64,000 bases of DNA from Escherichia coli O157:H7. GTDB taxonomy: Bacteria > Pseudomonadota > Gammaproteobacteria > Enterobacterales > Enterobacteriaceae. A program made the translations under genes and the position numbers. The number at the start of each line of letters is the position of its first letter. Position 1 is the first letter of the stretch. The notes below the pieces were generated by a model. The model was given only the letters and a program-made list of their open reading frames with translations, did no database searches and was not told the DNA's origin. Shown piece by piece: positions 36,190 through 38,564 of the stretch. The stretch lies in the NCBI RefSeq assembly GCF_013167455.1, contig NZ_CP038328.1, one strand, 5' to 3'.

Positions 36190-36240
36190 TCTTTTATCAG
36201 CGCTTACCCTGCGCTGTAACACAAAGGCTTAAGTTTCAAT

Positions 36241-36286
36241 GAGTAAAAATGACTCGCTACCCGCAGCAGGCGAGTCATTTTTACTC
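36241..36286. promoter_or_regulatory. ZraR enhancer: 17-bp inverted repeat between divergent sigma54 promoters
   Basis: GAGTAAAAATGACTCGC ... GCGAGTCATTTTTACTC, perfect arms separated by 12 bp. Confidence 0.75.
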
Positions 36287-36328
36287 GTTTATCATGCCAG
36301 ATTACCCGTCATATCAGCGTTTCATCGT

Positions 36329-36806: not shown

Positions 36807-37508
36807 TCAGAACGTTTTCTCGTTGGGTTGCCAGCGACAGAAATCAGAGTTTGCCACTAACAGTAATTGCGAACCTTCGGGCGCTTCCAGCCATGCCACG
36901 CTGACATCAACAGAAGAGCGGCTCTGGCGGCGCTCGATATGCGCTATTGCCTGCGAATCTAAATCAGGTTTAATGGTTTGCCCTTCGCAGGTGGTCACGG
37001 TCTGTTCCATCGCATGCCAGCGCCCCTGGCGCAGCACGACTCTCCCCTGACGTAAGGCATCGCTAATCTGGCGGATCTGATCAGCCCGATAACGGTATAA
37101 ATCGATTTGGTCGTTAGAAAGCTGCTGCTTTTCCCCATCGGATTCACGTTGCATAAAGCTCAGATCACCGCGATCGTCAAAACGCGCGCGAATATTCACC
37201 GGGGGTTTGCTGTAAACATTGATATTGATGAGCGTGAGGTTATCGCCCTGCCAGCGATACTCTCGCGTCGTGGTATCGCCACTGCGCCACGGGCTAAACA
37301 CGGCAAGAAAATGCACATTATCGCCGCTGTCTTTTCGCCAGATGCGTACCGCGCCCTGGTCTTCAGCAAATCCACTGGCGGTAAAGGGAGGAAGTGAAGA
37401 GTTGTGACTACAAGCAGTGAGAAACAGAGCGCCAGCCAGCATCAATGATCGACGCCAGAAAGACAAAAGGGGTGAAACCACCCCTTCGTTAAAACTGTTC
37501 ACTGCCAC
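36807..37508 (-). CDS. yjaH: DUF1481-family putative lipoprotein YjaH
   Basis: 233-aa ORF with N-terminal signal/lipobox-like LTAC; conserved position between zraP and hupA. Confidence 0.8.
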   Translation of the reverse strand: MAVNSFNEGVVSPLLSFWRRSLMLAGALFLTACSHNSSLPPFTASGFAEDQGAVRIWRKDSGDNVHFLAVFSPWRSGDTTTREYRWQGDNLTLININVYSKPPVNIRARFDDRGDLSFMQRESDGEKQQLSNDQIDLYRYRADQIRQISDALRQGRVVLRQGRWHAMEQTVTTCEGQTIKPDLDSQAIAHIERRQSRSSVDVSVAWLEAPEGSQLLLVANSDFCRWQPNEKTF

Positions 37509-37514
37509 GCAATC

Positions 37515-37787
37515 TTACTTAACTGCGTCTTTCAGTGCCTTGCCAGAAACAAATGCCGGTACGTTAGCTGCGGCAATTTTGATTTCTTTACCGGTCTGCG
37601 GGTTGCGGCCAGTACGCTCAGCGCGGTGGTTCACTTTGAAGGTACCGAAACCAACCAGTTGTACAGCATCGCCTTCTTTCAGAGACTCAGTAATTGCAGC
37701 CAGAGTGGACTCCAGAGCAGCTTTAGCCTGGGTTTTGGACAGTTCTGCTTTCTCTGCAATTACATCAATCAGTTGAGTCTTGTTCAT
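37515..37787 (-). CDS. hupA: DNA-binding protein HU-alpha
   Basis: 90-aa [93 protein letters not shown]. Confidence 0.97.
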
Positions 37788-37973
37788 AAGTTATCCTTAC
37801 AATGTGTTTATCGCTTGCTAAGCATCGAGTGCGACGGAAATGCCAGAATAGCACTCTCCTGCATACACGCACCGATAGCCACTTTTTTTCGCCCCCCAAA
37901 TGTAGACCAGACGGGGGGCGAAAGGGAAGACTCCAGGTACGACAAATCAGGCGTTAAATCACGTTTTCTGGTC

Positions 37974-38564
37974 TTATTGCTGAAAAATTATACCAATATT
38001 GCTCTCATCCGCCTCACGCAGGTCTGCCCTAAGGCCTTTTATCAGCTCGATATCGCGTTCTTCGCACTCAGCTAAAAGTCGGAATATTTCCCACTGAATG
38101 TCCCATTCTTGCTCTACAGCTGGGTTTTCTTTGAGCTCTTCATCGCTCATTTCGCGACCAGCCTGAGTCATTTCCAGCATCGCAACGGTCGTGATGGAGG
38201 TCTTACTCACTTCCACCGCGTGTTCGAGCGTTTCACCACTCAAACGCGAATGGACCAGTTCACTTAACGCCACGCAGGCATCGATTGCCGGATAAACGCC
38301 GTACAGATCGAAATCGTCGGCTGAAGGAATCGCTTCTTCAAATTTCTCCAGTTGGCTGTCGAAATTTACTTTTGCATCTTTAACGGTCAGCGTTTCCCAG
38401 ATGAGATCGAGAATACGACGGTAAATTTGCCCATCACCAAAACCGGTTTGCTGGCAGAACATGGCGTAATTGGGGTACATGCGTTCGCATAAGCAAGCCA
38501 TGAAAGTGACATGCTGCCAGCTTTCCAGGCGTTCCAGACGCAGATGAATTGGGTTTTGTAACAT
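37974..38564 (-). CDS. yjaG: DUF416-family protein YjaG
   Basis: 196-aa ORF, conserved position between nfi and hupA. Confidence 0.85.
   Translation of the reverse strand: MLQNPIHLRLERLESWQHVTFMACLCERMYPNYAMFCQQTGFGDGQIYRRILDLIWETLTVKDAKVNFDSQLEKFEEAIPSADDFDLYGVYPAIDACVALSELVHSRLSGETLEHAVEVSKTSITTVAMLEMTQAGREMSDEELKENPAVEQEWDIQWEIFRLLAECEERDIELIKGLRADLREADESNIGIIFQQ

What the first reader, a model, noticed from the sequence alone, without database searches (positions are those of the whole stretch)
37883..37920. G/C-clamp hairpin with the U-run on the wrong side, between yjaG and hupA
TTTTTTT followed by CGCCCCCC-(15 nt)-GGGGGGCG is a perfect 8-bp G/C stem. The T-run precedes the stem on the plus strand, so it is not a canonical intrinsic terminator for either the minus-strand yjaG transcript or a plus-strand RNA. 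It lies in the hupA upstream region and could be a structured element of a hupA leader, a protein-binding palindrome or a Rho-dependent pause site.
Basis: seen in the sequence. Interest (0 to 1): 0.2.

Follow-up and report, generated by a model that had tools for sequence, protein, structure and literature searches.

The report
Core promoter of the hupA gene
The G/C "hairpin" between yjaG and hupA is the already known main promoter of hupA: its loop holds the -10 box and transcription starts inside its second arm, so it is neither a terminator nor part of the hupA leader RNA.

Summary
The sequence is exactly as described. T7 lies at 37883-37889, CGCCCCCC at 37890-97, a 15-nt loop follows, and GGGGGGCG lies at 37913-20. 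The stem extends to 11 bp with TTT/AAA.

The window is E. coli, and yjaG and hupA are both on the minus strand. Two independent 5'-end datasets put the main hupA transcription start (RegulonDB hupAp1) at K-12 4200175/6, which is window 37893/37892. That is inside the G-run arm.
- The loop contains the -10 hexamer TACATT, at exactly -12..-7.
- The C-run arm is part of the 18-bp spacer.
- The -35 is TTCCCT (TTCACA in many relatives).
- The "T-run" is A7 at +4..+10 of the hupA mRNA.

Term-seq shows no 3' end at the stem, and full-length reads run from nudC through yjaG into hupA, so it does not terminate.

Across 88 loci from five Enterobacterales families the -10 is invariant. Only 18 keep a perfect 8-bp core, 57 carry uncompensated mismatches, and covariation equals the shuffled controls.

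Verdict: a known sigma-70 promoter whose G/C-rich spacer and discriminator happen to be complementary. Low interest. A cruciform or HU-autoregulation reading is not excluded but is unlikely.

The parts
37923..37928 (-). -35 hexamer of hupAp1 (TTCCCT, -36..-31)
   Evidence: It lies 18 bp upstream of TACATT. Mendoza-Vargas 2009 assigns the -35 box GTCTTCCCT to the -105 TSS. The orthologous hexamer is TTCACA in 24 of 88 loci. In Kluyvera L032, TTCACA-18-TACATT is the only promoter-like hit of the scan.
37905..37922 (-). 18-bp promoter spacer. It contains the first hairpin arm on the gene strand, CGCCCCCC (37920-37913), plus TTT (37923-37921, overlapping the -35).
   Evidence: Position is relative to the mapped TSS. 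Mean column identity is 92% in 67 distinct sequences. Arm variants include TGCCCCCC, CGCCCCCG and CGCACCCT.
37899..37904 (-). -10 hexamer TACATT (-12..-7), inside the 15-nt hairpin loop (37912-37898)
   Evidence: It is invariant in all 88 loci carrying the anchor. Mendoza-Vargas 2009 lists the PWM -10 box TCTACATTTG, score 5.58. It is retained as TTCTACATTT in the AT-rich genome L091, where both G/C arms are lost.
37890..37898 (-). Discriminator T+GGGGG (37898-37893) and start site. The second hairpin arm GGGGGGCG (37897-37890) contains +1, at 37892 by 5'RACE/RegulonDB or 37893 by SMRT-Cappable-seq.
   Evidence: SMRT-Cappable-seq gives a TSS at NC_000913.3 4200175 and a TTS at 4200605 covering b4000, in M9 (52 reads) and rich medium (45 reads). 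Directed 5'RACE gives a TSS at -105 from the ATG, listed as 'Known, hupAp1, distance 0'. Coordinates were mapped through.
37883..37889 (-).
   Evidence: Sequence and TSS position. Mean column identity is 97%.
37788..37892 (-). About 105-nt hupA 5' leader, from +1 to the ATG at 37787
   Evidence: TSS, ORF. The leader is nearly invariant in Enterobacteriaceae. Its predicted fold is not more stable than shuffles (z -0.83).
37466..37487 (-). hupA intrinsic terminator, where transcripts that cross the hairpin actually end
   Evidence: Terminator scan. A strong Term-seq 3' end at 4200605 and the SMRT-Cappable TTS at 4200605, a known terminator of b4000. This maps to window 37463.

Best explanation
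The inverted repeat is the core of the known sigma-70 promoter hupAp1 of hupA (HU-alpha).

Reading the gene (minus) strand, the elements are: -35 TTCCCT; an 18-bp spacer whose 3' two-thirds include the C-run arm; the -10 TACATT in the 'loop'; the discriminator TGGGGG; +1 G inside the G-run arm; and A7 at +4..+10.

RNA polymerase holoenzyme binds this DNA and melts it from about -11 to +2, which covers the 3' part of the loop and the G-run. It then starts the ~105-nt hupA leader with 5'-G(G)CGAAAAAAAGUGG. This positional assignment is shown.

The hupA mRNA therefore lacks the 5' arm and cannot form the hairpin. Only read-through RNAs from nudC-hemE-nfi-yjaG contain both arms, and they pass through to the hupA terminator. 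This is also shown.

The following is inferred. The complementarity of the two arms is a by-product of a G/C-rich spacer and a G-rich discriminator and start region. Each is conserved as sequence for promoter function. Possible roles are a discriminator contact with sigma region 1.2, start-site choice, a G/C-rich melting barrier that could underlie growth-phase or supercoiling sensitivity, and activation by Fis (cited); CRP regulation is from memory only.
For: Start site.
- Two independent 5'-end methods place the primary start in the G-run: SMRT-Cappable-seq at 4200175 and directed 5'RACE at -105, matching RegulonDB hupAp1.
- With +1 at 4200176, TACATT sits exactly at -12..-7.

Promoter elements.
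- The -10 is invariant in 88 loci from Enterobacteriaceae, Erwiniaceae, Pectobacteriaceae, Yersiniaceae and a Hafnia-labelled locus.
- Orthologues carry a near-consensus -35, TTCACA, at 18 bp. The promoter scan picks exactly that site in Kluyvera.
- The intergenic fragment drives lacZ (PMC6047807).

No termination.
- No Term-seq 3' end lies between yjaG and 4200253.
- Full-length reads span b3996-b4000.

No selected pairing.
- 76.0% of cells are paired against 75.8% in shuffles, and the covariation score is reached by 66 of 500 shuffles.
- 57 of 88 loci have at least one uncompensated mismatch in the 8-bp core.
- There is no Rfam match.
- The AT-rich genome L091 keeps the -10 but has lost both arms.
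Against: - The E. coli -35 (TTCCCT, 3 of 6) and -10 (4 of 6) are weak, and the consensus scan does not call the promoter in the window.
- The C-run in the spacer is more conserved (88-92%) than promoter spacers usually are. This leaves room for a function of the C-run, or of its pairing with the G-run, that I did not identify.
- One double change keeps pairing: CGCACCCT/GGGGTGCG in Rahnella and the Hafnia-labelled locus.
- The regulatory roles assigned to the G-run (sigma 1.2 contact, supercoiling or ppGpp sensitivity) are inference and were not tested here.
- The original promoter paper (Kohno et al. 1990) could not be read.
Confidence: 0.87

Rival explanations
1. The hairpin functions as RNA in read-through transcripts (nudC-hemE-nfi-yjaG-hupA). 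It would be an intercistronic stem-loop that pauses polymerase, blocks 3'-to-5' exonucleases to stabilise upstream yjaG RNA after cleavage, or marks a processing site.
For: Both arms are transcribed in read-through RNAs. The RNA stem is very stable, at -27 kcal/mol. Some pairing potential persists in all 88 loci.
Against: No 3' end was mapped at or just after the stem in Term-seq. Covariation is no higher than in shuffles, and mismatches are frequent and uncompensated. Conservation is fully explained by promoter elements. The arms are lost in L091.
Confidence: 0.07
2. The repeat acts as a DNA-level switch. Under high negative supercoiling it would extrude as a cruciform that hides the -10 box and recruits HU, which prefers cruciform DNA. 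This would give supercoiling-sensitive autoregulation of hupA.
For: The repeat brackets the -10 and the start site. The DNA hairpins are predicted at -14 kcal/mol per strand. hupA is reported to be up-regulated on DNA relaxation (PMC8301835). From memory only: HU binds cruciforms and hupA is autoregulated (Kohno 1990).
Against: From general knowledge, a 15-nt spacer with an 8-11 bp stem is unfavourable for extrusion. The stem has central C.A or A.G mismatches in Klebsiella, Salmonella, Kluyvera, Dickeya and Serratia, 57 of 88 loci in all. There is no covariation. No paper linking hupA and a cruciform at its promoter was found.
Confidence: 0.04
3. It is a terminator or Rho-dependent pause or termination site for yjaG.
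For: A G/C-rich stem lies 53 nt after the yjaG stop codon, and the upstream arm is C-rich.
Against: There is no U-tract on either strand. No 3' end was mapped there. Transcripts from upstream genes extend through hupA, and the number of transcript contexts rises gene by gene (1, 2, 3, 4, 6) up to hupA.
Confidence: 0.02

Closest known systems
hupAp1, the sigma-70 promoter of E. coli hupA (RegulonDB; originally mapped by Kohno et al. 1990, cited from memory)
   Same: It is the same locus and the same start site. The 5'RACE TSS at -105 is listed as 'Known, hupAp1, distance 0', and the SMRT-Cappable TSS is 1 nt away.
   Different: Nothing differs. The only addition here is that the spacer and the discriminator/start region are mutually complementary, and that this complementarity is not conserved.
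Intrinsic (Rho-independent) terminators
   Same: A G/C-rich stem-loop of similar size and stability lies downstream of a stop codon.
   Different: There is no 3' U-tract on either strand, no mapped 3' end, and transcripts read through it.
Promoters with G/C-rich discriminators (for example rRNA and fis-type growth-rate and stringently controlled promoters; general knowledge)
   Same: A G/C-rich segment lies between the -10 and +1, transcription starts with a purine, and the gene encodes a growth-phase-regulated nucleoid protein reported to be activated by Fis.
   Different: The non-template strand here is G-rich (TGGGGG) rather than the C-containing GCGC type. The spacer is 18 bp rather than 16 bp. 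ppGpp/DksA control of hupAp1 was not established here.

Membership tests
sigma-70 promoter (hupAp1) | Experimentally mapped primary (5'-triphosphate) transcript start | tested here: met
   SMRT-Cappable-seq gives a TSS at 4200175 in two media. Directed 5'RACE gives -105, matching the known hupAp1.
sigma-70 promoter (hupAp1) | -10 hexamer with A at position 2 and T at position 6, ending about 7 nt before +1 | tested here: met
   TACATT lies at -12..-7 relative to 4200176 and is invariant in 88 loci.
sigma-70 promoter (hupAp1) | -35 hexamer 16-18 bp upstream of the -10 | tested here: inconclusive
   The E. coli hexamer TTCCCT matches only 3 of 6 at 18 bp and fails the consensus scan. The orthologous TTCACA (5 of 6) occurs in 24 of 88 loci and passes the scan.
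sigma-70 promoter (hupAp1) | The fragment drives expression of a reporter | tested here: met
   From the literature: an intergenic fragment from CGTGATTTAACG... to ...GGATAAC fused to lacZ is active (PMC6047807).
Intrinsic terminator | G/C-rich stem immediately followed by a U-tract on the transcribed strand | tested here: not met
   On the gene strand A7 follows the stem. On the + strand AAAGGGAAG follows it. The scan finds none here.
Intrinsic terminator | RNA 3' ends at the site and a loss of downstream transcription | tested here: not met
   There is no Term-seq 3' end at 4200148-4200190. Full-length reads span b3996-b4000.
Conserved structured RNA element (leader or cis-regulatory) | Both arms present in the mature transcript it is meant to regulate | tested here: not met
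   The hupA TSS lies inside the 3' arm.
Conserved structured RNA element (leader or cis-regulatory) | Base pairing maintained by compensatory change | tested here: not met
   76.0% of cells are paired against 75.8% in shuffles, and the covariation score is reached by 66 of 500 shuffles. 57 of 88 loci carry uncompensated mismatches. There is no Rfam hit.
REP/BIME-type repeated palindromes | Many dispersed copies of the same palindrome | tested here: inconclusive
   There is only one copy in the 64-kb window. This was not searched genome-wide.
Cruciform-forming inverted repeat | Extrusion at physiological superhelicity | not testable with these tools
   Only indirect evidence is available: a 15-nt spacer, DNA hairpins of -14 kcal/mol, and a repeat that is imperfect in most species.

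The most novel reading that the evidence does not exclude
The complementarity between the spacer C-run and the discriminator G-run is functional. The hupA promoter would toggle between duplex (active) and cruciform or slipped (inactive, HU-bound) DNA. That would make HU-alpha synthesis a direct read-out of superhelicity and of free HU. In this reading the perfect 11-bp version found in Escherichia is a lineage-specific strengthening of the switch.
Probability: 0.04. Interest if true: 0.5.

Novelty: already known. Interest (0 to 1): 0.08.

Why it matters
It matters little beyond correct annotation. The result shows that a striking G/C stem next to a homopolymer run can simply be a promoter. Here the -10 sits in the 'loop' and the start site sits in one arm. 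It also shows that yjaG has no terminator of its own, so upstream transcripts run into hupA. If the unlikely cruciform/HU feedback reading were true, it would be a neat example of a nucleoid protein sensing DNA topology at its own promoter.

Tried and rejected
- Terminator reading: rejected. There is no U-tract, no 3' ends, and transcripts read through.
- Rfam scan of 37300-38300 at E up to 10: only noise (mir-4716, HOTAIR, SMAD5-AS1).
- My first guess was that the main promoter was the extended -10 TGcTATTCT at 37853-37845, with A7 acting as an UP element or Fis site. It was demoted. That site matches only a minor TSS at -52 with 3 reads. Its -10 region is not conserved outside Enterobacteriaceae.
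- Stringent-control and ppGpp literature for hupA: nothing specific was found, and Sanchez-Vazquez 2019 is not held.
- TSS tables of Thomason 2015, Conway 2014, Kim 2012 and Cappable-seq 2016 were not held or had no hit.
- A search for hupA plus cruciform or autoregulation at its promoter found nothing relevant.
- Deep relatives. L092 has a 20% G+C intergenic region with no recognisable homology. In L093 yjaG is not next to hupA. Both are uninformative.
- hupA leader structure: not more stable than shuffles.

Full report
**Observation**

On the + strand:
- T7 at 37883-37889
- CGCCCCCC at 37890-37897
- a 15-nt spacer at 37898-37912
- GGGGGGCG at 37913-37920

Three flanking T/A pairs extend the stem to 11 bp. 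The exact pattern occurs once in the window and in none of 100 shuffles.

Predicted stability exceeds the shuffled controls:
- As RNA: -27.4 kcal/mol on the gene strand and -25.6 kcal/mol on the + strand (z -2.7 and -3.4).
- As DNA: -14.0 and -13.3 kcal/mol (z -4.8 and -4.6).

The window holds 49 imperfect inverted repeats of at least 11 nt, so only the perfect G/C core is unusual.

**Context**

The window is E. coli, in reverse orientation relative to K-12. hemE, nfi, yjaG (38564-37974), hupA (37787-37515) and yjaH all lie on the minus strand.

The conversion is: K-12 coordinate = 4200094 + (37974 - window position).

On the gene strand the element reads CGCCCCCC-N15-GGGGGGCG-AAAAAAA. Neither strand has a stem followed by a U-tract, and the terminator scan finds only the hupA terminator at 37487-37466. 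Rfam gives nothing. The 501-bp region around the element (37500-38000) is at least 99% identical in 5419 of 5426 complete E. coli genomes.

**What it is**

Two independent 5'-end datasets place the main hupA transcription start inside the G-run arm.
- SMRT-Cappable-seq captures 5'-triphosphate ends. It lists a TSS at 4200175 and a TTS at 4200605 covering b4000, in both M9 (52 reads) and rich medium (45 reads) (Yan et al. 2018, PMC6131387).
- Directed 5'RACE lists a hupA TSS at -105 from the ATG, annotated 'Known, hupAp1, distance 0'. It assigns the -35 box GTCTTCCCT, and the PWM -10 box is TCTACATTTG (Mendoza-Vargas et al. 2009, PMC2760140).

These starts map to window 37893 and 37892.

With +1 at 37892, the promoter elements on the minus strand are:

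| Element | Window position | Relative position |
|---|---|---|
| -35 TTCCCT | 37928-37923 | -36..-31 |
| 18-bp spacer (contains the C-run arm) | 37922-37905 | -30..-13 |
| -10 TACATT (in the loop) | 37904-37899 | -12..-7 |
| Discriminator TGGGGG | 37898-37893 | -6..-1 |
| A7 | 37889-37883 | +4..+10 |

The hupA mRNA therefore starts with 5'-G(G)CGAAAAAAAGUGG, lacks the 5' arm, and cannot form the hairpin. An intergenic fragment that includes this site drives lacZ (PMC6047807).

**It is not a terminator or pause site with detectable ends**

Term-seq tables list no 3' end at the stem (Adams et al. 2021, PMC7815308). The nearest 3' ends are at 4200253 (weak), 4200389, and the strong hupA terminator end at 4200605.

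SMRT-Cappable-seq Supplementary Data 3 extends the RegulonDB operons b4000 and b3996|b3997|b3998 to full-length transcripts b3996|b3997|b3998|b3999|b4000. The number of transcript contexts rises along the cluster: 1, 2, 3, 4 and 6 for b3996 to b4000.

So upstream transcripts cross the stem and end at the hupA terminator. The hairpin exists as RNA only in these read-through molecules.

**Comparative evidence**

I collected 80 Enterobacteriaceae loci. I added Dickeya, Erwinia, Pantoea, Atlantibacter, Cronobacter, Pectobacterium, Rahnella, Serratia and a Hafnia-labelled locus.

Main findings:
- The yjaG-hupA spacing is fixed at about 186 bp within Enterobacteriaceae.
- CTGGTCTACATTTG is invariant in all 88 loci.

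Mean column identity by element:

| Element | Mean identity |
|---|---|
| -10 | 100% |
| +1..+3 | 99% |
| A-run | 97% |
| Spacer | 92% |
| Discriminator | 91% |
| -35 | 83% |

- The orthologous -35 is TTCACA in 24 loci. The promoter scan picks TTCACA-18-TACATT as the only promoter-like site in Kluyvera.

Pairing between the arms is not maintained:
- The G-run is GGAGGG in 28 loci, GGGAGG in 4, GGAAGG in 3, GGTAGG in 2 and GTGGGG in 3, usually opposite an unchanged C-run.
- Only 18 of 88 loci keep a perfect 8-bp Watson-Crick core, and 57 have at least one non-pairing position.
- On 36 distinct sequences, 76.0% of cells pair, against 75.8% in column shuffles (197 of 500 shuffles are as high). 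The covariation score of 0.075, against 0.066, is reached by 66 of 500 shuffles.
- The single attractive double change is CGCACCCT/GGGGTGCG in Rahnella and the near-identical 'Hafnia' locus. It sits next to Dickeya, Pectobacterium and Serratia, which carry A.G at the same pair.
- The three outer A-U pairs occur in 12 of the 36 distinct sequences: Escherichia and a scattering of other Enterobacteriaceae.
- In an AT-rich 2.39-Mb genome (L091) the -10 survives as TTCTACATTT, but both G/C arms are gone.

**Mechanism**

Shown:
- The position of the start site and the -10.
- Read-through of upstream transcripts.
- The absence of 3' ends at the stem.
- The absence of covariation.

Inferred:
- The two arms are conserved as promoter sequence.
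- From general knowledge of sigma-70 promoters, the G-rich non-template discriminator probably contacts sigma region 1.2 and helps fix the start site. This could compensate for a weak -35 and an 18-bp spacer.
- The G/C-rich region that must be melted may contribute to the reported sensitivity of hupA to DNA topology (activated on relaxation, PMC8301835) and to Fis activation (cited in PMC9221221).
- I could not establish ppGpp control.

**Rivals**

- RNA role in read-through transcripts, as a stabiliser or processing barrier: about 0.07.
- DNA cruciform or HU feedback switch: about 0.04. It is attractive because HU binds cruciforms (from memory) and hupA responds to relaxation. It is disfavoured by the 15-nt spacer and by the imperfect stems in most species.
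- Terminator or Rho site: about 0.02.

**Comparison with known elements and verdict**

This is the known hupAp1 promoter, so the finding is not novel. The leader-structure and Rho-pause ideas fail because transcription starts within the second arm and no RNA ends map there. Interest is low.

Noticed in passing
window 37487-37463 (minus strand): The hupA intrinsic terminator and its mapped 3' end (K-12 4200605) lie inside the annotated yjaH coding sequence. Term-seq labels the end 'internal yjaH'. Either yjaH is expressed only by read-through (13 of 52 reads pass the TTS in M9), or its annotated start is too far upstream.
   Followed up: partly
window 37892-37788; L082 2092-2401; L087 1792-1995: The ~105-nt hupA leader has two almost invariant blocks, +1..+48 and the last ~50 nt. 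They flank a variable segment that carries a ~124-bp insertion in Dickeya and ~18 extra bp in Pectobacterium. A weak Term-seq 3' end lies in the leader at K-12 4200253, which is window 37815. The E. coli leader fold is not more stable than shuffles.
   Followed up: partly
window 37853-37839 (minus strand): An extended -10-like site, TGcTATTCT, matches a minor TSS at -52 (3 reads by 454 sequencing). Further minor 5' ends are listed at -45 and -4. The site reads TATTTT in most Enterobacteriaceae and is not conserved in Erwinia, Pantoea or Dickeya.
   Followed up: partly
window ~37963-37949 (minus strand; about -71..-57 of hupAp1): The block AAAACGTGATTTAAC just after the yjaG stop codon is highly conserved across families. 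It resembles a CRP half-site centred near -62. CRP and Fis regulation of hupA is known to me only from memory (Claret and Rouviere-Yaniv 1996).
   Followed up: no
window 37904-37896 (minus strand): TACATTTGG equals the first nine positions of the RstA box TACATnTnGTTACA (consensus from memory). PMC6047807 reports lower hupAp-lacZ activity in an rstA mutant but names no site.
   Followed up: no
L038; P0080: A contig labelled Chryseobacterium sp. 18061 carries an Enterobacteriaceae yjaG-hupA locus whose aligned yjaG-hupA intergenic sequence is identical to that of Citrobacter sp. 18056 (L036). A YjaG protein is also labelled Vagococcus sp. WN89Y. Both are probably contaminated or mislabelled assemblies.
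   Followed up: no
window 36238-36289: A 20-nt inverted repeat, 95% complementary with a 12-nt gap, lies at the 5' end of the zraP region (I2). It probably contains regulator-binding sites of the divergent zraP/zraSR control region.
   Followed up: no
window 37923-37928 versus L032 3137-3142: The E. coli -35 of hupAp1 is degenerate (TTCCCT). Kluyvera, Dickeya, Erwinia, Pantoea, Serratia and Rahnella have TTCACA. The E. coli-specific T's that weaken the -35 are the same bases that add the three extra A-U pairs to the stem.
   Followed up: partly
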